64,000 bases of DNA from Escherichia coli (GCF_016026235.1 NZ_CP065613.1), one strand, 5' to 3'. Positions 10,418-63,157 are shown, counted from the stretch's first letter. The notes: generated from the letters alone by a model not told the origin. Numbers and translations: made by a program.

Positions 10418-10494
<77 letters not shown>

Positions 10495-10518
10495 TCACCG
10501 TACTGCTTTTACTTCATC

Positions 10519-10605
<87 letters not shown>

Positions 10606-10638
10606 TCACCGTACTGCTTTACTTCATCAAATTTTAAT

Positions 10639-10715
<77 letters not shown>

Positions 10716-12107: not shown

Positions 12108-12212
12108 ATGCCGGATGCGGCGTGAACGCCTTATCCAGCCTACAAATCATGCAAATCCAAAATATTGCAGGAGTTATGTAGGCCTGATAAGCGTAGCGCA
12201 TCAGGCATTTAT
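12108..12212. repeat. BIME-like pair of REP palindromes (mltA-tcdA intergenic)
   Basis: tgccggatgcggcgtgaacgccttatccagcctaca and tgtaggcctgataagcgtagcgcatcaggca in opposite orientation. Confidence 0.6.
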
Positions 12213-15200: not shown

Positions 15201-15406
15201 AAAAAAAAGCACCGCAATTAGGCGGTGCTACATTAATCACTATGGACAGACAGGGTAAATGTACAGGAAGTGAAAAAAGGTAGCTTTGCTACCATGGTCT
15301 GAATCGCAGACCAATTGCAAACACAACAACACAACATCACAACCGTAAGCCAAAAGTTCACCAGAACACGCATTCCGATAAAACTTTTCGTTCCGGCTCA
15401 GGAAGT
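15201..15406 (-). ncRNA. gcvB: GcvB small regulatory RNA
   Basis: Reverse complement begins ACTTCCTGAGCCGGAACGAAAAG, contains the GU-rich R1 region and ends in the hairpin GCACCGC..GCGGTGC plus U-run; 206 nt; divergent from gcvA. Confidence 0.9.
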
Positions 15407-52415: not shown

Positions 52416-53564
52416 TCACCAACGGCCGGATGAACCGCCGCCTCCTGAAGAACCGCCACCACCGCGGAAAGAATTTCTCGACGAAGAGCGAGAATGAGCA
52501 TTACGATTCCCCGTTTTCCTGTTGCTTTTTTCTCCTGACCCCAGCTTAAGATTGCCAGTAAATTTGGCCACAATGATCAGCAGAACGATGCCAGCAATGG
52601 TTATTGGGCCGATAAAATGATCAATTAACCCAATAATTGTTGAGATGAATGCAATATCTTTATTACTGGCGAACACCAGGCACCATCCCACAATAATTAT
52701 CAGCATCACGACAAACAATGAATTTCGTCCTGATTCACGAACCTGCGGAGTCTTCTTTTGTTTTTTCACTTTAGCGTTTTTATTTTTTGGGGGCAGCATC
52801 ATAGGAAATACGCGGCACATATTAAAAACTACCGCGAGACGCTGCTTGCAGGTTGTTGCTAACAATAAACTAAAACAAACGACCGATACCCGCCGAATGA
52901 TGACATCGTCCTGAAAGGAGAAAAACCAGACCATAGGGGTAATCATCGATATCATCCATATGCCACGCCGTGGGCGGCTGGCAAATCGCCAGAGGACAAC
53001 GATGGCAACGATCATCAGCAGTGTCCAGGCAAGACATGGCAGCGAACGTTGCGGATTAGCAAACAGATGATTGGCTAAAGCATCCAAAGGGCTAAGGTTC
53101 GCTTTGATATGGGTAAACTGTGCGATGCTTTCAATTCCGCCCGTTAATCCAGCAAAGAGATTGTTTTTTTCGAATTCTGGCTGCATATGGTAACGAACAA
53201 TTTGCGCAGCTTGTTCCGGCGGCAACATCTCTTCCAGTCCATGTCCAATCTTCATTGACGCCAGCCCTTCCGGCCAAACGACGAGAATTAAGATACCTTC
53301 GCCATATCGCTTCTCTCCAACGGGTTTCCAGTGATATACCCCGTAGCTCTGCGAGGCTGCAAGTTTAATGTTTTTGCCCCCTGTTGTCGGCGTAACCAAC
53401 ACGGCCACCTGGAAGTGGTTTTGCTGCTCGAGAGTCTGTAATTGTTGATTTAAAGCACTTTGTTCTTCTGTCGTTAATGTCCCGGTTAAGTCAGTCACTG
53501 AAGGCAATCGTTCAGCGAATACCTGAAAACCGCATAGCATCAGAAGTAAGAGAAAAATACGCAT
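52416..53564 (-). CDS. TPM-domain membrane protein (paralog 2), Gly/Ser-rich C-terminus
   Basis: 382 aa; signal peptide, TPM-like N-terminal domain, several hydrophobic segments, tail ...RGGGGSSGGGGSSGRW. Confidence 0.75.
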   Translation of the reverse strand: MRIFLLLLMLCGFQVFAERLPSVTDLTGTLTTEEQSALNQQLQTLEQQNHFQVAVLVTPTTGGKNIKLAASQSYGVYHWKPVGEKRYGEGILILVVWPEGLASMKIGHGLEEMLPPEQAAQIVRYHMQPEFEKNNLFAGLTGGIESIAQFTHIKANLSPLDALANHLFANPQRSLPCLAWTLLMIVAIVVLWRFASRPRRGIWMISMITPMVWFFSFQDDVIIRRVSVVCFSLLLATTCKQRLAVVFNMCRVFPMMLPPKNKNAKVKKQKKTPQVRESGRNSLFVVMLIIIVGWCLVFASNKDIAFISTIIGLIDHFIGPITIAGIVLLIIVAKFTGNLKLGSGEKSNRKTGNRNAHSRSSSRNSFRGGGGSSGGGGSSGRW

Positions 53565-53578
53565 ATCAATTCCTTTTG

Positions 53579-54472
53579 TTACCAGCGCCCGGAAGCGCCA
53601 CCGCCACCAGATGAACCGCCACCACCGCTAAAATTGTCATTGTCGAATGAAGAGGATGACGATGATGAATAGTGGGAGGAAGAATTGCTTCTTGTATGGC
53701 GTGATGGCTGGTTGGCATCACGCATCGAATCTCGAACCTTTTTGCCGAAGGGGGTAAAAGCGATGGCAACTGCCAGGAACGGTGTGGCGAAGCAGAGTAA
53801 TGTTGCGAGTACTCCCCAGCTTCCGCTGAAACCTGCTATAGGTAAAACAAAGGCCAGTACAATAGCTGCGAAACAAATTACTCCCAGCGTTTTGATATAT
53901 CCTCTGGCAGAAATAAACGTCAGTACTATCGCCCAGACTAACAAAGCCCACCAACCGCTAAAGGGTAAAGGGTGATCGGTCGGTGTTATCGTTGCTAAAT
54001 TATTCCCCGTCAGACGACTTTCAAGATCGCTGATCCCCTTTTGTAAACCGACAGCAAGATCGCCCTTTTTAAACGCTGGAATAATACTGTTGCGTATAAT
54101 TTGCCCGGACTGCGCATCCGTAATAATACCTTCCAGTCCGTAACCAATTTCAATACGCACGGTATGATCCTGCCAGGCGACTAACAGTAGAACGCCATCA
54201 TCGCGGTCTTTATCACCCGGTTTCCAGCTATCGAATACCCGCGTTGCGTACTGCTCGATGCTTTCATCGCCTGTTGTTTCAACCACTAACACGACCAACT
54301 GTGCGTGGTTTTTTTGCGTCAGGGCTTTGATCTGGTTGGTCAGGGTGTTTACTTCGCTATTTGTTAATGTGCCGGTTAAGTCATTCACATACCTGGGTGA
54401 TTCAGGTACTGGAATTTGTGTGGCAAACACAGATGAACAGAAGAAAGCCATAAGGAAGATAAAATTTCGCAT
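53579..54472 (-). CDS. TPM-domain membrane protein (paralog 1), Gly/Ser-rich C-terminus
   Basis: 297 aa from ATG 54472 (MRNFIFLMAFFCSSVFA signal peptide; GGGGAAG-type SD upstream); tail ...SGGGGSSGGGGASGRW. Confidence 0.75.
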   Translation of the reverse strand: MRNFIFLMAFFCSSVFATQIPVPESPRYVNDLTGTLTNSEVNTLTNQIKALTQKNHAQLVVLVVETTGDESIEQYATRVFDSWKPGDKDRDDGVLLLVAWQDHTVRIEIGYGLEGIITDAQSGQIIRNSIIPAFKKGDLAVGLQKGISDLESRLTGNNLATITPTDHPLPFSGWWALLVWAIVLTFISARGYIKTLGVICFAAIVLAFVLPIAGFSGSWGVLATLLCFATPFLAVAIAFTPFGKKVRDSMRDANQPSRHTRSNSSSHYSSSSSSSFDNDNFSGGGGSSGGGGASGRW

Positions 54473-54485
54473 AGAACTTCCCCGC

Positions 54486-55088
54486 TTAATGAGCACTAGC
54501 ATTCTGGCTAAAATCTATTGTTGGTGCTTTACTCACAGCGGCGACATCATCCGGCAAATAATTTTTCTTTGGTGTGTAATCCATGACCTTTGCGGTTAAC
54601 ACAGCGGGGAATTTGCGGATAGTGACATTATATTGTTCAATGGCTTTAATATATCTTCCTCGCGCAACGGCAATCCGATTTTCACTTCCTTCAAGCTGTA
54701 CCATTAAATTTTGATAGAGTTCCTGAGATTTTAACTCAGGGTAACGCTCACTAATTATCGTTAACTGACCGAGAGTGCGAGTCACCTGCGCTTGAGCCTG
54801 TTGCCAGGCTTGTAATTTTTGTTCATCTCCCGGAGTTTGCTGAAGATCGCTACTGGCGCGATTAGCCTGGCTACGAGCCAATGTTACGGCTTCCAGTACA
54901 TCTCGTTCATGGCTGGAATAACCTTTAATACTGGCGACAAGATTAGGAATAAGATAGGCGCGACGTTGATATTGATTCAATACCTCAGACCAGGAGGCGT
55001 TAACCTGCTCATCATAGGTTTGAATATCGTTATATCCACAGCCTGATAAATTGAAAATAAATATAATTACGATGAATATTCTGAGCAT
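54486..55088 (-). CDS. lemA: LemA-family membrane protein
   Basis: 200 aa; N-terminal hydrophobic segment with lipobox-like LSGCG; LemA-like body; first gene of an operon with the TPM genes. Confidence 0.75.
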   Translation of the reverse strand: MLRIFIVIIFIFNLSGCGYNDIQTYDEQVNASWSEVLNQYQRRAYLIPNLVASIKGYSSHERDVLEAVTLARSQANRASSDLQQTPGDEQKLQAWQQAQAQVTRTLGQLTIISERYPELKSQELYQNLMVQLEGSENRIAVARGRYIKAIEQYNVTIRKFPAVLTAKVMDYTPKKNYLPDDVAAVSKAPTIDFSQNASAH

Positions 55089-55260
55089 GTTTAAATCCCT
55101 TTTAATTAATTCCTTAAAACATAATACTCTGCTTCATTTTATTCTTTATGATCTAATCCACTTTTTGCCATAAACCTGCCTGTAACAGAATGTTAATAAG
55201 ACATGATTGTTGTGGCAGGATCTGCAATAATTAACAATTATCCACTTCACAGAGAATGCT

Positions 55261-55932
55261 ATGCAGTACCCGATTAACGAGATGTTCCAGACCCTGCAAG
55301 GTGAGGGTTACTTTACCGGCGTCCCCGCCATTTTTATTCGTTTACAGGGATGCCCGGTTGGCTGTGCCTGGTGCGACACCAAACACACCTGGGAAAAGCT
55401 TGAGGATCGGGAAGTCTCCCTTTTCAGCATTCTGGCGAAGACCAAAGAGAGTGATAAGTGGGGGGCGGCGAGCAGTGAAGACTTGCTGGCTGTCATTGGT
55501 CGCCAGGGATATACCGCGCGGCATGTGGTGATTACGGGTGGTGAGCCTTGCATTCATGATTTGCTGCCACTGACTGACCTGCTCGAAAAGAACGGTTTTA
55601 GCTGCCAGATCGAAACCAGTGGTACTCATGAAGTACGCTGTACACCGAATACCTGGGTTACCGTATCGCCAAAGCTGAACATGCGCGGCGGCTATGAAGT
55701 GTTGTCACAGGCACTGGAGCGAGCCAACGAAATCAAGCATCCAGTGGGACGCGTACGTGATATTGAAGCACTGGATGAACTTTTGGCGACGCTGACCGAT
55801 GATAAACCGCGAGTCATTGCACTGCAGCCGATTAGCCAAAAGGATGATGCCACACGTTTGTGCATTGAAACCTGCATTGCGCGTAATTGGCGTTTGTCGA
55901 TGCAAACCCATAAATATTTAAATATTGCCTGA
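55261..55932 (+). CDS. queE: 7-carboxy-7-deazaguanine synthase (radical SAM)
   Basis: 223 aa; cysteine motif CPVGCAWCDT; matches recalled QueE/YgcF. Confidence 0.9.
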   Translation: MQYPINEMFQTLQGEGYFTGVPAIFIRLQGCPVGCAWCDTKHTWEKLEDREVSLFSILAKTKESDKWGAASSEDLLAVIGRQGYTARHVVITGGEPCIHDLLPLTDLLEKNGFSCQIETSGTHEVRCTPNTWVTVSPKLNMRGGYEVLSQALERANEIKHPVGRVRDIEALDELLATLTDDKPRVIALQPISQKDDATRLCIETCIARNWRLSMQTHKYLNIA

Positions 55933-56059
55933 TTAAACATTTATAAGCGTTATAAATGGGGGGAACCTGTAAAGACTTCTACTCATTTATATTCTTTGTC
56001 GCCTCTGAAAAAGCTCCATTTTGCCCATCCTGGACTAATCATTATCATTCTCTACAAAT

Positions 56060-56270
56060 TCTGTGGCGTTAATTTTTTGTTGGAGTGAAAATTATTGCGG
56101 TAAAGTTTGGTAGATTTTAGTTTGTATAGAATTATTTTAAATATTTACCTTTTTAATCAATGAGTTAAGTGCTCTTTAACATAATGGATGTGTTGTTTGT
56201 GTGATACTGTAAAGTTGGTAGATTGTGACTGGCTTAAAAAATCATTAATTAATAATAGGTTATGTTTAGA
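56060..56270 (+). promoter_or_regulatory. CRISPR leader (AT-rich) of the type I-E array
   Basis: AT-rich sequence ending ...CTGGCTTAAAAAATCATTAATTAATAATAGGTTATGTTTAGA immediately before repeat 1, as in E. coli I-E leaders. Confidence 0.7.
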
Positions 56271-56523
56271 GAGTTCCCCGCGCCAGCGGGGATAAACCGA
56301 TGACAAAAATTTGCAGGTGCTGGCAGAGGCCGAGTTCCCCGCGCCAGCGGGGATAAACCGTCAGGTGGGATGGTCAGCGCGAAACACACGCCGAGTTCCC
56401 CGCGCCAGCGGGGATAAACCGAGCGCGCAGTTATCAGCCGCGACAACATGAAAGAGTTCCCCGCGCCAGCGGGGATAAACCGCTCATATACGTTACAGCG
56501 TCGGAAATGGAGGCGAGTTCCCC

Positions 56524-57815
56524 TGAGGAATCCCCAGAAAACAAGACAGGCATAGTGAGATGTGATCTAATTGATTGTGCTAACAATTTCAAGGAGATCA
56601 CCACTATGCCTGCACGTTCATTATGCCAAAATTTCCTTAACAACATACTGGCCCCTTTGCATCTTTACCGTCAAAAATCACTGATTGACGCAACTAATGC
56701 TGTAATAAATGGCGCTTCCCTCACACTTACCAGTATCGGGCGTCATTTAACCGGTACGGCATCAGTTAAAAACAAAATAAAGCGGGTGGATCGACTGTTG
56801 GGGAATCGACATTTGCAAAATGAGGTTTCCACCATTTTTCAGCGAATTACCCAAAAGATTACGCGGGGAATGTCTCGTGTTGTGATACTCATTGACTGGA
56901 GTGCTTATCATGCCTCTCGTTTTCAGCTTTTGCGGGCAAGCCTGGCATGTGACGGGCGTTCTTTACCGTTGATGAGTTGTGTCGTTCCATCATCACAGAC
57001 AGCGAATGCAGATGTACATGAGCGTTTTCTGGAATCGCTTGCTGAGTGCTTTTCCCCCGGGACTGATGTCATTGTTATTACAGATGCCGGTTTTCAGGGG
57101 CGATGGTTCCAACAGCTCCGCTCCCGTGGCTGGACCTATATTTGCCGGGTACTGGGCAATCATTATTACAATGTTGGTAATGGCTGGGAAAAGGTGTCGG
57201 ACTCAGGCACAAAAGCATCAACGACAGCAATTTATTTAGGTGAAGGCCTGCTGGGTCGAGATAAAAATGCACAACATGAAGGGCATTTTTATCTTTATAA
57301 AAGTAAGCCTAAAGGTCGTAGATTTAAACGCTCGAAGGAAAGAGCAACCAGACCATCGGTGACGGCTAAAGCTCGTACTGCCGGGAAATCACCATGGTTT
57401 ATTTTCACAAACAGTACTGAGTTCTCGCCAAAACAGGTAATGAAATTATACAGCCGTAGAATGCAAATTGAGCAAAATTTCAGGGATGAAAAAAATCCTC
57501 GCTGGGGATTTGGACTACGGTTTGGTGCCAGTCATTCATCCGGGCGGGTCACGGTATTGAGTCTGATCGCAACATTAGCCAGTATCATTATGTGGTTAAG
57601 CGGTTTCAGCCTGGAAAACAAAGGGATACATCATAAATATCAGGCAAATACAGTGAAGCACAGGCGAGTCATCTCGTTATTAAAACTGGCGGAGAATGTG
57701 ATTCGACATTCTCCACTCATACTAAACACACTGTCACTTGACGCAGGGCTGAAAGTTCTACAGCAACGGTATACCAATATGATAATGGTTTACTAAATTT
57801 TCTGGGGATCCCTCA
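56524..57815 (+). mobile_element. IS4-family (IS10-like) insertion sequence, copy 1, inside a CRISPR repeat
   Basis: ~1.29 kb; imperfect terminal inverted repeats CTGAGG(A/G)ATCCCCAGAAAA; flanked by a direct duplication of 10-12 bp of repeat sequence (GCGAGTTCCCC); one transposase ORF. Confidence 0.85.
56606..57796 (+). CDS. IS4-family DDE transposase (IS10-like)
   Basis: 396 aa from ATG 56606 (AAGGAG SD); shares recalled IS10 transposase motifs (KRVDRLLGNRHL, LIDWS, ITDAGF, YSRRMQIEQNFRD, YQANTV); the track ORF start at 56507 is read-through from spacer 4. Confidence 0.8.
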   Translation: MPARSLCQNFLNNILAPLHLYRQKSLIDATNAVINGASLTLTSIGRHLTGTASVKNKIKRVDRLLGNRHLQNEVSTIFQRITQKITRGMSRVVILIDWSAYHASRFQLLRASLACDGRSLPLMSCVVPSSQTANADVHERFLESLAECFSPGTDVIVITDAGFQGRWFQQLRSRGWTYICRVLGNHYYNVGNGWEKVSDSGTKASTTAIYLGEGLLGRDKNAQHEGHFYLYKSKPKGRRFKRSKERATRPSVTAKARTAGKSPWFIFTNSTEFSPKQVMKLYSRRMQIEQNFRDEKNPRWGFGLRFGASHSSGRVTVLSLIATLASIIMWLSGFSLENKGIHHKYQANTVKHRRVISLLKLAENVIRHSPLILNTLSLDAGLKVLQQRYTNMIMVY

Positions 57816-58316
57816 GGCGAGTTCCCCGCGCCAGCGGGGATAAACCACCATATAACCCGTTATCTCTTTCTCAAGTTTTTATATTAGCAGTACTTGTAAT
57901 AAGCAACATATCCACGTAACACCTCATGTTCAAAATAGTTCTCCATGCCAGAGAAGTTCACAATTATCGATACAAAAAATTAAGTTTAATCAAAGTATTA
58001 TTTGTATGATTCTTAAATCATTAAGAAATTTTAATATATTATTTTTTTAATATTAATTAATGCCTGTTAATTTTTGCTTAAGTATAACAGTGTATTTTTT
58101 AAGCTTGTTATTCATTGATTAAGTAATAAATCTGGAAGTTTGTCTTTGTTTTGAGGCTAATGAGTGGTTTTACATAACCGCCTCTATACGCTGTTGATGA
58201 ATAGTTCTTATGAATAAAGATATTCAGTTCATACTTTAAGTGAAAATTGATAAAGTGCGATTCGTATTGTCTTTTATTCTAAAGACATCGAGTGTAGTTA
58301 ATATTCCTTGTAAAAA

Positions 58317-58376
58317 CAGGGATAAACCGAACTAGTTAAAGTTTTTATTATGTTCCCCGCGTCAGCGGGGATAACC
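58317..58376 (+). repeat. Degenerate CRISPR repeat remnant
   Basis: cagggataaaccg, then ~22 bp, then GTTCCCCGCGTCAGCGGGGATAACC (diverged from the canonical repeat), preceded by ~450 bp of AT-rich sequence. Confidence 0.55.
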
Positions 58377-58423
58377 ATTCAGGTATGTTCAGGCCGGGCT
58401 GTTTCCCGCCCGGCCTTCCTCAC

Positions 58424-59902
58424 TTACGCATTCGACCAGCTCTGGATCGAATCCGCATTCCCCAATTCCCCATGCATCACTTCATACGATTTTTTCAGGA
58501 TCACATCAGTATGTTTGGTTAGGTCTTTGAAAATGCCTTTATTCATCGCGTCGTAGCGTTTGGCATTGCTCTCAACAGGCATAAAGATATCTTTCACGCG
58601 AACCATTTTGTCGACAGCCGTTGCGTAATCCGGGTATAGCCCCAGACCTACCGCCGTATTGATCGCTGCCCCCAGACTTGCACAACCGTTAATGGCGTTA
58701 CGGCGTGCCGGAAGGTTGAACACGTCGGCAAAAATTTGCATAAACAGATCGCTGTTCGAACCGCCGCCAGTAATGATCACATGCTTTGCAAAGTGATTCA
58801 TTTCATTACACATATTGTCGTAATTGTTCTTCAGCGTCAGCGCCACGCTTTCCAGTATCGAACGATATATCCATGCGTAATCCATGCTGGAATCAAAGCC
58901 GATCATAATCCCGCGTTTGTACGGTTCCCACGGATTGGTCAGCCAGTCCAGCACCGTCATCAGCCCATTACAGCCAGGTGGCACACTAGAGGCTTTCTTG
59001 TTGAGTAAATCTTCCGGTGAAAGATCCTGAGCCCTGGCATCCTGAATTAACGACTCGCCTAGCATGTCGCGCAGCCAGCTCACCGTCCACATGCCTTTGC
59101 GAATACCGTAACCTTCATACAGCAATGTTTGCGGAATAGAAGACATAATCGGCCAGTACGCCACCGGATCTTTCGGCAGTGCTTTGCCGTTCATCATCAA
59201 TGCGATGTAAGTGCCAAGAGAAATTACCGCAGTTTCATCATCCAGTAATCCGGCCCCCAGAGCTTCTACCGGTTTATCACTGGTGGTACAAACAACCGGC
59301 AGTCCTGCCGGGAAATGTGTCGCCAGTGCGGCTTGTGGTGTGATATGTCCGAGGACGGTGCCAGGCATTTGCACATCAAACAGCATATGACGGGGGATAT
59401 TAAACTTCTCCATTACCGCAGCATCTTCGCTCCATGCCCAGCTCTTATAATCCACCGGCCACTGACCAAAATAGTTGGCGATATTGTCTTTAAACTCGCC
59501 GGTTAAGCGATGCGTCAGATAACCCGAAAAAGAGGTGACATAGGCCACGTCAGGATTAGTGTGTTCGTAGGGACGCGTTACGCGTGCATCCTGCCAGCTA
59601 ATCAATGGCGCAGCTGGCGTGCCATCGGCTTTCAATAACGCACGGCAGCAACGGATGGATCCCAGACCAATACCGACAATATCTTCTTTATTCCCGGCAA
59701 ACTGACTCATCAAATCGTGACCGGCAAAACATAATGATGCCCATAAATCGTCGTCAGGATGTTCTGCGGTATCGGCATCTGGCGTGTGCATCGGCTGCAA
59801 TAAGCCTTTACCTTCGCAAACCACATTACCTTCCAGATCGTACATCACCACTTTTGTGCTCTGACTTCCGCCATCAATCCCTATGATGTATTTTTTCGAC
59901 AT
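58424..59902 (-). CDS. ygcE: FGGY-family sugar kinase YgcE
   Basis: 492 aa; MSKKYIIGIDGGSQSTKVVMYDLEG...; glycerol/xylulose-kinase-like. Confidence 0.85.
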   Translation of the reverse strand: MSKKYIIGIDGGSQSTKVVMYDLEGNVVCEGKGLLQPMHTPDADTAEHPDDDLWASLCFAGHDLMSQFAGNKEDIVGIGLGSIRCCRALLKADGTPAAPLISWQDARVTRPYEHTNPDVAYVTSFSGYLTHRLTGEFKDNIANYFGQWPVDYKSWAWSEDAAVMEKFNIPRHMLFDVQMPGTVLGHITPQAALATHFPAGLPVVCTTSDKPVEALGAGLLDDETAVISLGTYIALMMNGKALPKDPVAYWPIMSSIPQTLLYEGYGIRKGMWTVSWLRDMLGESLIQDARAQDLSPEDLLNKKASSVPPGCNGLMTVLDWLTNPWEPYKRGIMIGFDSSMDYAWIYRSILESVALTLKNNYDNMCNEMNHFAKHVIITGGGSNSDLFMQIFADVFNLPARRNAINGCASLGAAINTAVGLGLYPDYATAVDKMVRVKDIFMPVESNAKRYDAMNKGIFKDLTKHTDVILKKSYEVMHGELGNADSIQSWSNA

Positions 59903-59928
59903 GATTTTTCTCCTGTAATTTTCCTGGC

Positions 59929-61983
59929 TTACTTGCTGCTAGCTATTGCGGGGGCGCTATCAGCAGTACGAATTTTTTGGAACAGCAAAAAGGTAAAGAC
60001 GATCACCATGCCGAGCGCCGCCATGCCCATCAGCCACATATTGCGGTAGGCTTCTGCTGCGGGCAGGGTGTCTTGCCAGTGGCCGATAATTGGGTAAACG
60101 AAGACATCCGGCAGGAATCCTATCACCGAACAAATACCTACCGTGGTGCCCATAATGTAAGACGGTGTTCTCGCTTCGCCGGGGCAGGCCCAGTACAGTC
60201 CACGTGAGGCGTAGCAGGTGAATCCCAGCAGTAAAATCAGGCCAATCCCCATTGCGACCGATTGCGGGTTAGAGTTGGTAACAAGCAGGGCAGTCAGTGC
60301 CAGCAGGCCGATGATGGAAAGGATTTGGATCACGCGGGTAGGGGATTTCACTTTGCTGTAGGTGGTGATTATGCCGCCAAGTGGGCCGCACAGCGCGCGG
60401 AATATTTTGTTGATCACAATCCCCATGTAGCTCGCCGCCACCAGCGACATGCCGTACATTTCGGTCAGATAGTTGGTGGAGGTAATGACTCCAACTTATT
60501 GATAGTGTTTTATGTTCAGATAATGCCCGATGACTTTGTCATGCAGCTCCACCGATTTTGAGAACGACAGCGACTTCCGTCCCAGCCGTGCCAGGTGCTG
60601 CCTCAGATTCAGGTTATGCCGCTCAATTCGCTGCGTATATCGCTTGCTGATTACGTGCAGCTTTCCCTTCAGGCGGGATTCATACAGCGGCCAGCCATCC
60701 GTCATCCATATCACCACGTCAAAGGGTGACAGCAGGCTCATAAGACGCCCCAGCGTCGCCATAGTGCGTTCACCGAATACGTGCGCAACAACCGTCTTCC
60801 GGAGACTGTCATACGCGTAAAACAGCCAGCGCTGGCGCGATTTAGCCCCGACATAGCCCCACTGTTCGTCCATTTCCGCGCAGACGATGACGTCACTGCC
60901 CGGCTGTATGCGCGAGGTTACCGACTGCGGCCTGAGTTTTTTAAGTGACGTAAAATCGTGTTGAGGCCAACGCCCATAATGCGGGCAGTTGCCCGGCATC
61001 CAACGCCATTCATGGCCATATCAATGATTTTCTGGTGCGTACCGGGTTGAGAAGCGGTGTAAGTGAACTGCAGTTGCCATGTTTTACGGCAGTGAGAGCA
61101 GAGATAGCGCTGATGTCCGGCGGTGCTTTTGCCGTTACGCACCACCCCGTCAGTAGCTGAACAGGAGGGACAGCTGATAGAAACAGAAGCCACTGGAGCA
61201 CCTCAAAAACACCATCATACACTAAATCAGTAAGTTGGCAGCATCACCGTTGGTGGAGTAACTCAGAATGGCGTAGATGGTGAAGACACCAAAAATCACC
61301 ATGCTGCAATACCAGGTGGTGCTGATGCGCAAAACGGCCAGGATGTCGCTAAGCTGGAATGATTGTTTTTCTTCGTTATTGGCACTGCGCAGGTTGTTGT
61401 TATCGCTAACAAAAAACCAGCACAGAATCCCCAACAAGATGTAAACCACACTATAGATGATAATGACCGTTTTCAGGCTGGTGCTGTCATCCGGTGCAAA
61501 GCGAGAAAAAACCCACATGGTAAACACTGCCAGCGACATTACACCGACGCCGCGCAGCCCTTCCATCCAGCCCATAATTTTCCCTTGCTCGCTATGATCG
61601 CCAAGCAACGAGGCGGCTTTAATCGACACCGACCACAGCATTAAAATCGTCGTTATCGCAAATGCGACCTGAATACAGAGCATTACCCACAGCGGTGGAT
61701 ACGTTGCCATTAACAGACCCAGTAATCCGGTAATGATCATCGCGGAAGTAATCATTTTGCGATGTGAGAATTTATCGGCAATAACGCCGCTGGGGGCATA
61801 AAGAATAATAGCTGCAATACCAAAGGTACTCATTATTAAACCTATCTCGGTATTGCTGAATCCCATAAATTTCGCCATGGGAATTTGATAAATATAACGT
61901 AAATAAGCCAGGTCGAAACTAACGCCGCCGCTAAAACTAATTATCGCGAGGGTTATCCAACGGCGATATGAGTTGTGTTGCAT
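59929..61983 (-). pseudogene. yqcE: MFS transporter YqcE-like, disrupted by IS1
   Basis: N-terminal part 61249-61983 and C-terminal part 59929-60480 are in the same reading frame across a 768-bp IS1 plus 9-bp duplication; together ~425 aa. Confidence 0.8.
60481..61248 (-). mobile_element. IS1: IS1 insertion sequence (insA 60918-61193, insB 60496-60999)
   Basis: 768 bp; ends GGTAATGACTCCAACTTATTGAT (plus strand) and reverse complement of GGTGATGCTGCCAACTTACTGAT; InsA ([23 protein letters not shown]...) and InsB ORFs; 9-bp target duplication GTTGGTGGA at 60472-60480 and 61249-61257. Confidence 0.95.
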
Positions 61984-62234
61984 ATCGTATTCCCATTTGT
62001 AATAGACAAAAAAAAGAGAAAAGTAAGCCGCCCTTTCAGGTGGATTACTTTTCTCAGGTCTCTAGTAATTGAAATAATAAATAACATGGAAAGCAGAGGT
62101 GTTGTGTGAGAGTAATCACGCTTCTGCTTTTTAAAACTATTTGATAATGCGAATATCACACTGTGATTACGATCACATTAGCAGTTATGTCCTTATGCTA
62201 AAAATTATCTCCAGTTACCAGAGATAATGAGAAA

Positions 62235-62278
62235 GGTAACTTCCCTCTCGCGGGGGAAGTTACCTTTCTTTTTTTTTT
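62235..62278 (+). terminator. Hairpin plus T-tract in the ygcW 5' region (terminator- or attenuator-like)
   Basis: GGTAACTTCCCtctcgcGGGGAAGTTACC (11-bp perfect arms) followed by tttcttttttttttt, ending ~25 bp before the ygcW ATG. Confidence 0.5.
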
Positions 62279-62302
62279 GCCTTACGGAAATTGGAGCTAA
62301 CT

Positions 62303-63088
62303 ATGTCAATCGAATCTCTCAATGCGTTCTCAATGGATTTTTTCTCCCTGAAAGGTAAAACCGCAATTGTTACCGGCGGGAATAGCGGTTTAGGCCAGGC
62401 ATTTGCCATGGCGTTGGCCAAAGCAGGCGCAAATGTCTTTATTCCAAGTTTTGTCAAAGATAACGGCGAAACAAAGGAAATGATTGAAAATCAGGGTGTT
62501 GAGGTGGACTTCATGCAGGTGGATATCACCGCAGAAGGCGCGCCGCAGAAGATTATCGCTGCCTGCTGTGAGCGTTTCGGTACAGTTGATATTCTGGTTA
62601 ACAATGCCGGTATTTGTAAGCTGAATAAGGTGCTGGACTTCGGTCGTGCCGACTGGGATCCAATGATTGATGTGAACCTGACCGCCGCATTCGAGTTAAG
62701 CTACGAAGCGGCAAAAATTATGATCCCGCAGAAAAGCGGTAAAATCATTAATATCTGTTCATTGTTCTCTTACTTAGGTGGACAATGGTCACCTGCATAT
62801 TCTGCCACTAAACATGCTCTTGCCGGATTCACCAAAGCTTATTGTGATGAACTAGGTCAATATAATATTCAGGTAAATGGTATTGCCCCTGGCTATTATG
62901 CAACAGATATTACGCTGGCGACACGCAGTAATCCAGAAACCAATCAGCGCGTTCTTGATCATATTCCAGCAAACCGTTGGGGCGATACTCAGGATTTAAT
63001 GGGCGCTGCCGTATTCCTCGCAAGTCAGGCATCGAATTATGTCAACGGGCATTTATTAGTGGTCGATGGCGGTTATTTAGTGCGCTAA
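62303..63088 (+). CDS. ygcW: Short-chain dehydrogenase/reductase YgcW
   Basis: 261 aa from ATG 62303 (GGAG SD); TGGNSGLGQA Rossmann motif and YSATK catalytic motif. Confidence 0.85.
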   Translation: MSIESLNAFSMDFFSLKGKTAIVTGGNSGLGQAFAMALAKAGANVFIPSFVKDNGETKEMIENQGVEVDFMQVDITAEGAPQKIIAACCERFGTVDILVNNAGICKLNKVLDFGRADWDPMIDVNLTAAFELSYEAAKIMIPQKSGKIINICSLFSYLGGQWSPAYSATKHALAGFTKAYCDELGQYNIQVNGIAPGYYATDITLATRSNPETNQRVLDHIPANRWGDTQDLMGAAVFLASQASNYVNGHLLVVDGGYLVR

Positions 63089-63157
63089 TCCATAACGGTG
63101 GTTTCTGTTTTCTCTTATTAATGATTATTCCATTTTTATTATCAGGAAGGAATTACT

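What the first reader, a model, noticed from the sequence alone, without database searches (positions are those of the whole stretch)
56271..57846. Short CRISPR array with no cas genes in the window; four spacers available for target search
The spacers are ATGACAAAAATTTGCAGGTGCTGGCAGAGGCC, TCAGGTGGGATGGTCAGCGCGAAACACACGCC, AGCGCGCAGTTATCAGCCGCGACAACATGAAA and CTCATATACGTTACAGCGTCGGAAATGGAGGC. No cas gene lies within 64 kb; in K-12 the cas operon is beyond the ygcU side, which the window does not reach. Whether this array is functional depends on cas genes elsewhere and on the IS insertion.
Basis: seen in the sequence. Interest (0 to 1): 0.45.

Follow-up and report, generated by a model that had tools for sequence, protein, structure and literature searches.

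The report
Decaying E. coli CRISPR array, IS-interrupted
This is the well-known second type I-E CRISPR array of E. coli/Shigella (between queE and ygcE), here shrunk to four spacers, cut in its last repeat by an insertion sequence, and served only by a cas operon 112 kb away in which cas3 and cas7 are broken, so it is an ordinary relic of past phage immunity.

Summary
Four exact 29-nt type I-E repeats and four 32-nt spacers follow the K-12-type CRISPR2.3 leader downstream of queE. The fifth, terminal repeat is split by a 1294-bp ISEc60 (IS4 family) with a 10-bp target duplication.

There is no cas gene in the window. I traced the source genome (GCA_900449985.1, contig UGFA01000002.1, 100% identical over 10.8 kb). 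It does carry a type I-E cas operon, about 112 kb from the array.

In that operon cas7 has an amber stop at codon 206 and cas3 has an 11-bp frameshift deletion, so interference should be dead.

- **Spacer 1** matches an uncultivated viral contig 32/32 with an ATG PAM.
- **Spacers 1 and 4** both match (31/32 each, same strand) an E217-like myovirus prophage in two STEC genomes. K-12's own spacers hit the same prophage.
- **Spacers 2 and 3** have no target.

Relatives share spacer 1 as the leader-proximal spacer and differ only by internal spacer losses, so there has been no recent acquisition. This is known biology and of low interest. One side observation stands out: ISEc60 hit this same repeat position independently, in the opposite orientation, in a related strain.

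The parts
56071..56270 (+). CRISPR2.3 leader (74.5% A+T), downstream of queE (55261-55932)
   Evidence: 194/200 identical to the K-12 queE-proximal leader. The leader side sets transcription of the array on the + strand (Almendros 2014, PMC3903273).
56271..56299 (+). Repeat 1 (29 nt, canonical type I-E)
   Evidence: hairpin -15.1 kcal/mol, z = -3.6
56300..56331 (+). Spacer 1, ATGACAAAAATTTGCAGGTGCTGGCAGAGGCC
   Evidence: 32/32 match with 5' ATG PAM in IMG/VR UViG_2831977961_000006, in the tail-tube gene (E217_Gp32 family). 31/32 with ATG PAM in the STEC384 prophage.
56332..56360 (+). Repeat 2
56361..56392 (+). Spacer 2, TCAGGTGGGATGGTCAGCGCGAAACACACGCC
   Evidence: No target found.
56393..56421 (+). 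Repeat 3
56422..56453 (+). Spacer 3, AGCGCGCAGTTATCAGCCGCGACAACATGAAA
   Evidence: No target found.
56454..56482 (+). Repeat 4
56483..56514 (+). Spacer 4, CTCATATACGTTACAGCGTCGGAAATGGAGGC
   Evidence: 31/32 match in the STEC384/STEC379 prophage, in a small baseplate-module gene (Pam3_gp18 / phrog_349). The PAM position there reads ATA.
56515..56522 (+). 5' stump of the terminal repeat (GAGTTCCC), part of the left target-site duplication GCGAGTTCCC (56513-56522)
   Evidence: The empty site is seen in relative L011, which has spacer 4 followed by an intact terminal repeat. The stump plus the IS end cannot form the repeat hairpin.
56523..57816 (+). ISEc60 (IS4 family), 1294 bp. Inverted repeats CTGAGGAATCCCCAGAAAA / CTGAGGGATCCCCAGAAAA. 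Transposase CDS 56606-57796 (396 aa).
   Evidence: 99.3-99.8% identical to copies annotated ISEc60 (H1-H14, H18; more distant copies H15-H17 98.6-98.8%). NCBIfam NF033591, 360 bits against a cutoff of 152. IRs match 18/19.
57817..57826 (+). Right target-site duplication GCGAGTTCCC
57819..57847 (+). Terminal repeat (ends in A rather than G), followed by the K-12-type trailer
   Evidence: Identical terminal repeat and trailer in K-12.
58318..58377 (+). Degenerate CRISPR2.2 remnant (GGGATAAACCG ... TGTTCCCCGCGTCAGCGGGGATAACCA), next to ygcE (58424-59902, - strand)
   Evidence: K-12 has a longer version with one more repeat-like unit. CRISPR2.2/2.3 nomenclature from PMC3903273.
63588..64000 (-). 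Second ISEc60 copy, inserted in ygcU and cut off by the window end
   Evidence: 100% identical over 413 nt. In the source contig it joins ygcU' to a truncated ygcN, with flanks that do not match, which indicates a deletion.

Best explanation
This is the CRISPR2.3 array (CRISPR-II locus, queE/ygcF-ygcE) of an IS-rich E. coli/Shigella-type genome, in an advanced state of decay. It was built by a type I-E (cas-E1 variant) system. At least two of its four spacers were captured from temperate E217-like myoviruses. As designed, the leader promoter transcribes the array on the + strand. Cas6e cuts after each repeat hairpin to give 61-nt crRNAs. Cascade loaded with these crRNAs finds PAM-flanked protospacers and recruits Cas3. 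In this genome that chain is broken at three points. First, ISEc60 has inserted 8-9 nt into the terminal repeat, so spacer 4 has no downstream hairpin and cannot be matured normally. Second, cas7, the Cascade backbone, has an amber stop at codon 206 of 351. Third, cas3 has an 11-bp frameshift deletion. An ISEc60-mediated inversion has also moved the cas operon about 112 kb from the array. Shown: the anatomy, the lesions, the protospacers and the IS insertion. Inferred: there is no interference; at most, spacers 1-3 could still be processed by the apparently intact Cas6e.
For: Array, leader and trailer are homologous to the K-12 CRISPR2.3 locus. The repeat hairpin is present in intact repeats and lost at the IS junction. 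The IS is ISEc60 with a 10-bp TSD, and the precise empty site is seen in relative L011. The source contig is 100% identical over 10,843 bp. The cas operon lies on the same contig. By NCBIfam, Cas2e, Cas1e, Cas6e, Cas5e, Cse2 and Cse1 are full-length, Cas7 covers only profile positions 1-206 of 325, and Cas3 is split. The cas7 TAG is identical in five assemblies. The cas3 11-bp deletion is defined against an intact 899-aa allele in L019. Protospacers are documented. Relatives FDAARGOS_943, L011 and L012 all keep spacer 1 next to the leader and differ only by internal spacer losses. The literature reports degraded cas-E loci and sporadic IS in CRISPR-II, mostly in Shigella (PMC2886076, PMC3903273).
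Against: No expression or processing data can be obtained with these tools. I saw only about 42 kb of the 4.56-Mb contig outside the window, so a second, intact I-E operon elsewhere, or on a plasmid, is not formally excluded. An amber suppressor could in principle rescue cas7, though it could not rescue the cas3 frameshift. The spacer 4 protospacer in the only matching prophage has ATA rather than AWG at the PAM position.
Confidence: 0.85

Rival explanations
1. The array is functional and is served in trans by an intact cas operon elsewhere in the genome.
For: A type I-E operon exists on the same contig, and six of its eight genes look intact. The leader is 97% identical to K-12. Three spacers have intact flanking repeats.
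Against: cas7 carries a lineage-wide amber stop at codon 206. cas3 carries an 11-bp frameshift in the source genome. No new leader-proximal spacer appears in any relative.
Confidence: 0.04
2. The system is partly alive. Cas1-Cas2 and Cas6e are intact, so the array can still acquire spacers or yield processed crRNAs used for something other than DNA interference, such as regulation.
For: Cas1e, Cas2e and Cas6e give full-length profile matches. Repeats 1-4 fold into the Cas6e hairpin.
Against: All four lineage members examined have the same first spacer and only internal losses. No chromosomal target of the spacers was found in 5426 E. coli genomes apart from one prophage. By established knowledge, the E. 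coli I-E operon is H-NS-silenced (Pul et al. 2010, cited in PMC2886076).
Confidence: 0.1
3. The array is a true orphan: all cas genes have been lost from the genome, as in the closest complete genome, FDAARGOS_943.
For: In FDAARGOS_943 the region reads cysH-hok-ISEc60-iap, with the whole cas operon and CRISPR1 deleted.
Against: The contig that is 100% identical to the window still carries cas2 through cas3 and a six-spacer CRISPR1 array.
Confidence: 0.01

Closest known systems
E. coli K-12 CRISPR2.3 array (CRISPR-II locus, ygcE-ygcF/queE; 'CRISPR2' of Touchon & Rocha 2010)
   Same: Same chromosomal position, same leader (194/200), same terminal repeat and trailer, same 29-nt repeat with 32-nt spacers, and a CRISPR2.2 remnant about 0.5 kb downstream.
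   Different: Repeats begin GAG rather than K-12's GTG. There are four lineage-specific spacers, found in only 1 of 5426 complete E. coli genomes. ISEc60 sits in the terminal repeat. The cas operon is of the other variant (hok-associated, Cas1 306 aa; 'E1' of Almendros 2014), and it is inverted away and decayed.
Degraded type I-E CRISPR-Cas loci of Shigella/EIEC (Touchon & Rocha 2010, PMC2886076; Almendros et al. 2014, PMC3903273)
   Same: IS insertions, frameshifts and truncations in cas-E genes, short arrays, and sporadic IS elements in the CRISPR-II locus.
   Different: The specific lesions here are a cas7 amber stop, a cas3 11-bp deletion, ISEc60 in the terminal repeat, and a 127-kb ISEc60 inversion. 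I did not find these in the papers read. The organism label of the source assembly is not visible to me.
ISEc60 / IS4-family (IS10-like) insertion sequences
   Same: DDE transposase of 396 aa (NF033591), 19-bp terminal inverted repeats, a 10-bp target duplication, and a near-palindromic target preference (GGGAATTCCC-like).
   Different: Here it lands at the 5' edge of a CRISPR repeat. The same nucleotide position is hit in the opposite orientation in FDAARGOS_943, and the equivalent position of the CRISPR1 terminal repeat is also hit there.

Membership tests
Type I-E CRISPR array (E. coli CRISPR2.3) | 29-nt repeat matching the consensus GAGTTCCCCGCGCCAGCGGGGATAAACCG, with a 7-bp stem hairpin | tested here: met
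   There are four exact copies plus a terminal variant. MFE is -15.1 kcal/mol and 0 of 200 shuffles fold as well.
Type I-E CRISPR array (E. coli CRISPR2.3) | Regular 61-nt period with unique 32-nt spacers | tested here: met
   Spacing is 61, 61, 61, and the spacers are unrelated to one another.
Type I-E CRISPR array (E. coli CRISPR2.3) | A+T-rich leader homologous to the CRISPR2.3 leader, at the queE(ygcF)-ygcE intergenic position | tested here: met
   194/200 identity to K-12 and 74.5% A+T. queE and ygcE flank the array.
Type I-E CRISPR array (E. coli CRISPR2.3) | Spacers derived from mobile elements, with an AWG PAM 5' of the protospacer | tested here: inconclusive
   Spacer 1 matches 32/32 and 31/32 with ATG. 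Spacer 4 matches 31/32 but with ATA. Spacers 2 and 3 have no target.
Type I-E CRISPR array (E. coli CRISPR2.3) | Transcription from the leader and Cas6e processing into crRNAs | not testable with these tools
   The consensus promoter scan is uninformative. RNA data are needed.
Functional type I-E CRISPR-Cas system | Complete cas3, cse1, cse2, cas7, cas5, cas6e, cas1 and cas2 in the genome | tested here: not met
   All eight genes are present on the source contig. However, cas7 has TAG at codon 206 and cas3 has an 11-bp frameshift.
Orphan CRISPR array (no cas genes genome-wide) | Absence of cognate cas genes anywhere in the genome | tested here: not met
   The cas operon lies at record positions about 3,872,089-3,880,639 of the same contig, and the array at about 3,758,537-3,760,113.
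ISEc60 (IS4 family) | At least 95% nucleotide identity to named ISEc60 copies, an IS4-type DDE transposase, terminal inverted repeats, and a target duplication | tested here: met
   99.3-99.8% identity to ISEc60-annotated copies H1-H14 and H18; more distant copies 98.6-98.8%. NF033591 at 360 bits. IRs match 18/19. 10-bp TSD GCGAGTTCCC.

The most novel reading that the evidence does not exclude
ISEc60, whose target preference is a GGGAATTCCC-like near-palindrome, may treat the 5' edge of type I-E CRISPR repeats (GAGTTCCCC) as a recurrent insertion hot spot. If so, it actively drives CRISPR-Cas decay in this lineage. Three observations point this way. The same nucleotide of the CRISPR2.3 terminal repeat is hit in opposite orientations in two related strains. 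The equivalent position of the CRISPR1 terminal repeat is hit in FDAARGOS_943. ISEc60 copies also bound the deletion (FDAARGOS_943) or the inversion (this genome) of the cas operon.
Probability: 0.35. Interest if true: 0.35.

Novelty: already known. Interest (0 to 1): 0.15.

Why it matters
It matters little beyond bookkeeping. The locus is the textbook second I-E array of E. coli, and degraded cas-E systems with IS insertions are documented in Shigella-like lineages.

There are three useful by-products. Second, two spacers, together with five of K-12's own spacers, point to one family of E217-like temperate myoviruses. This family is almost absent from isolate collections yet was evidently a frequent past enemy of E. 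coli. Third, there is a hint that one IS family repeatedly lands in I-E repeats.

Tried and rejected
- **Phage and plasmid BLAST.** I ran the four concatenated spacers against 50,697 phage records and 72,556 plasmids at E up to 10. Nothing credible came back. The recurrent plasmid hit (query 6-42, 84%) spans the artificial spacer 1/spacer 2 junction and is chance.
- **IMG/VR exact scans.** Both halves of spacers 2 and 3, and the 5' 20-mer of spacer 4, gave no hits.
- **Rfam.** The gathering-threshold scan reports no CRISPR-DR family on the array.
- **Fusion ORF look-up.** The 429-aa ORF that starts inside spacer 4 and runs into the transposase (56507-57796) is not on record. The annotated start is 56606.
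- **Source assembly in the literature.** Searching for the source assembly accession gave nothing, so I cannot give the organism label.
- **In-situ inversion.** I considered that the opposite-orientation ISEc60 in FDAARGOS_943 arose by in-situ inversion. I rejected this because homologous recombination with other copies preserves each flank-to-IS-end junction. Independent insertion is more parsimonious.
- **L014 flank.** I considered that the flank of an ISEc60 in L014 (CGGTTTATTCCCGC) was a CRISPR repeat. It lies in a coding gene and the resemblance is chance.
- **Promoter scan.** The scan of the leader gave no more sites than shuffled sequence.
- **Target-site model.** A PWM built from eight sites ranks the CRISPR site only in the top 0.2-0.4% of window 10-mers. 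Target sequence alone does not make it an exceptional site.

Full report
**Observation**

The region 56271-57847 contains four exact copies of GAGTTCCCCGCGCCAGCGGGGATAAACCG at a strict 61-nt period.

Upstream lies a 74.5% A+T leader. Its last 200 nt are 194/200 identical to the leader of the K-12 array between queE (ygcF) and ygcE. Downstream, the terminal repeat (ending in A) and the trailer are also those of K-12. A degenerate CRISPR2.2-type remnant sits at 58318-57377's counterpart position, 58318-58377, just before ygcE (58424-59902, minus strand).

The window as a whole is the gcvB-csrB-eno-queE-ygcE segment of an E. coli-type chromosome. The locus is therefore the CRISPR2.3 array of the CRISPR-II locus as defined by Almendros et al. 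2014 (PMC3903273). It corresponds to 'CRISPR2' of Touchon and Rocha 2010 (PMC2886076).

**The insertion sequence**

The fifth repeat is interrupted after GAGTTCCC by a 1294-bp element at 56523-57816.

- Its 19-bp terminal inverted repeats match 18/19.
- It has a 10-bp target duplication, GCGAGTTCCC.
- It carries a 396-aa IS4-family transposase gene at 56606-57796 (NF033591, 360 bits).
- It is 99.3-99.8% identical to the best-matching copies annotated ISEc60 (H1-H14, H18), mostly in EIEC-type strains and their plasmids; more distant copies are 98.6-98.8%.

A close relative (L011, GCA_902503985.1) has spacer 4 followed by an uninterrupted terminal repeat. That is the precise empty site.

Intact repeats fold into the Cas6e hairpin at -15.1 kcal/mol. 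The truncated repeat plus the IS end does not form it (-4.4 kcal/mol, no better than shuffles). Spacer 4 therefore lacks the 3' handle needed for normal crRNA maturation. This last step rests on established knowledge of Cas6e processing.

**cas genes**

No cas gene lies in the window. tblastn with the eight K-12 Cas proteins gives a best E of 0.048.

No complete E. coli genome contains the whole locus. To find the source, I used the lineage-specific YgcU'-ISEc60 fusion ORF (63158-63646) as an exact-match probe. This recovered contig UGFA01000002.1 of GCA_900449985.1 (4.56 Mb), which is 100% identical to window positions 53158-64000.

Beyond the window end, that contig continues as follows: the rest of ISEc60, a truncated ygcN, queD, cysJIH, hok, and then ISEc60 interrupted by IS4. 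There is no cas3 where K-12 has it.

Probing with Iap located the cas operon on the same contig at about 3.872-3.881 Mb. The gene order there is iap, a six-spacer CRISPR1 array, then cas2, cas1, cas6e, cas5, cas7, cse2, cse1, cas3, then ISEc60. The array in the window maps to about 3.7585-3.7601 Mb. The distance is about 112 kb, and the operon lies on the gcvB side of the window.

The hok-side IS end and the cas3-side IS end carry the same target duplication, GGGTAAAACC(C), yet lie 127 kb apart in inverted orientation. This is the signature of an inversion by recombination between ISEc60 copies. It is an inference from two loci; I did not read the intervening DNA.

**State of the cas operon**

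- NCBIfam profiles are covered end to end by Cas2e, Cas1e, Cas6e, Cas5e, Cse2 and Cse1.
- Cas7 stops at profile position 206 of 325. The gene has an in-frame amber TAG at codon 206 of 351. The same TAG is present in four other assemblies of the lineage.
- cas3 is split into two ORFs by an 11-bp deletion (AGGGTTTGTTT) at about codon 334, relative to an intact 899-aa allele in relative L019.

Without the Cas7 backbone and Cas3, Cascade-mediated interference cannot work.

In the closest complete genome, FDAARGOS_943 (99.3% identical), the whole operon and CRISPR1 are deleted. ISEc60 there joins hok to the CRISPR1 terminal repeat.

**Array history**

| Genome | Spacer order | IS in terminal repeat |
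|---|---|---|
| FDAARGOS_943 | S1-Sx-S2-S3-S4 | yes |
| Window | S1-S2-S3-S4 | yes |
| L011 | S1-S2-S4 | no |
| L012 | S1-Sx | no |

All four keep S1 next to the leader and differ only by internal losses. There has been no acquisition since they diverged. These spacers occur in only one of 5426 complete E. coli genomes.

**Spacer targets**

Phage isolates and plasmids give nothing credible.

Spacer 1 matches an IMG/VR contig 32/32, with ATG immediately 5' of the protospacer. The match lies in a tail-tube gene of the E217_Gp32 family.

Spacers 1 and 4 both match a prophage present only in STEC384 and STEC379. Each matches 31/32, on the same strand, 3.4 kb apart. The spacer 1 site is in the tail-tube gene with an ATG PAM. 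The spacer 4 site is in a small baseplate gene, with ATA at the PAM position.

The prophage's sheath protein is at most 43% identical to that of any isolate. This explains the empty phage BLAST.

Spacers 2 and 3 have no target.

**Seen in passing**

- Five of K-12's own spacers hit the same prophage.
- 1127 genomes carry a CRISPR spacer against the prophage's tape-measure gene, but only two genomes carry the prophage itself.
- ISEc60 target sites give the consensus GGGAATTCCC.
- In FDAARGOS_943 the CRISPR2.3 terminal repeat is hit at the same nucleotide in the opposite orientation, with the same duplication. This implies an independent insertion.

**Verdict**

The feature is a known kind of locus, now a relic of past immunity. 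Interest is low. The only mildly novel thread is a possible ISEc60 preference for I-E repeat edges.

Noticed in passing
window 56513-57826; L001 27289-34236 (FDAARGOS_943): ISEc60 sits at exactly the same nucleotide of the CRISPR2.3 terminal repeat, with the same 10-bp duplication, but in the opposite orientation in FDAARGOS_943. There it is itself broken by ISSso6 and IS66. This implies an independent insertion at a hot spot. In that strain ISEc60 also abuts the equivalent position of the CRISPR1 terminal repeat (TAGAATTCCC).
   Followed up: partly
ISEc60 flanks in L005, L006, L008, L009, L010, L014, L021: Eight non-CRISPR ISEc60 target duplications give a near-palindromic consensus, GGGAATTCCC. 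The CRISPR site GCGAGTTCCC ranks only in the top 0.2-0.4% of window 10-mers under this model.
   Followed up: partly
window 63588-64000 (- strand); L010 10431-11724: A second ISEc60 copy lies in ygcU. In the source contig its two flanks do not match (ygcU on one side, a truncated ygcN on the other). This indicates an IS-mediated deletion of ygcS through ygcO.
   Followed up: partly
window ~60486-61248: An IS1 copy is inserted in yqcE, splitting it into ORFs 59929-60459 and 61222-61983. Relatives L011 and L012 have yqcE intact.
   Followed up: partly
L010 18387 and L021 20282 (source contig, outside the window): One ISEc60 insertion between hok and cas3 now has its two ends 127 kb apart in inverted orientation, with the same target duplication GGGTAAAACC(C). 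This is an inversion of the block that contains the whole window.
   Followed up: partly
L003 (STEC384 prophage) 3724, 8313, 9774, 12369, 16921: K-12 MG1655's own spacers match this same E217-like prophage: CRISPR1 numbers 4, 5 and 11, and CRISPR2.3 numbers 1 and 4, at 28-32 of 32-33 nt. A CRISPR spacer against its tape-measure gene is present in 1127 of 5426 genomes, while only 2 genomes carry the prophage.
   Followed up: partly
L021 1-971 (source contig): rpoS is called as two ORFs (146 and 179 aa) in the source genome and is annotated as frameshifted in FDAARGOS_943. This is consistent with a reductively evolving, Shigella/EIEC-like lineage.
   Followed up: no
window 56507-57796: The reading frame of the ISEc60 transposase stays open upstream through the left inverted repeat to an ATG inside spacer 4 (429-aa ORF). 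The IS is co-oriented with array transcription, so read-through from the CRISPR leader promoter into the transposase gene is conceivable.
   Followed up: no
window 52416-55088: Between eno and queE the window has a LemA-family gene and three TPM-domain genes, where K-12 has yqcG and ygcG. This is a known variable segment shared with many E. coli.
   Followed up: no
window 10421-10715, 12143-12185, 15201-15406, 33587-33946: Rfam finds three tRNAs, the ES036 sRNA, GcvB and CsrB. These are ordinary landmarks that fix the window's position on the E. coli map.
   Followed up: no
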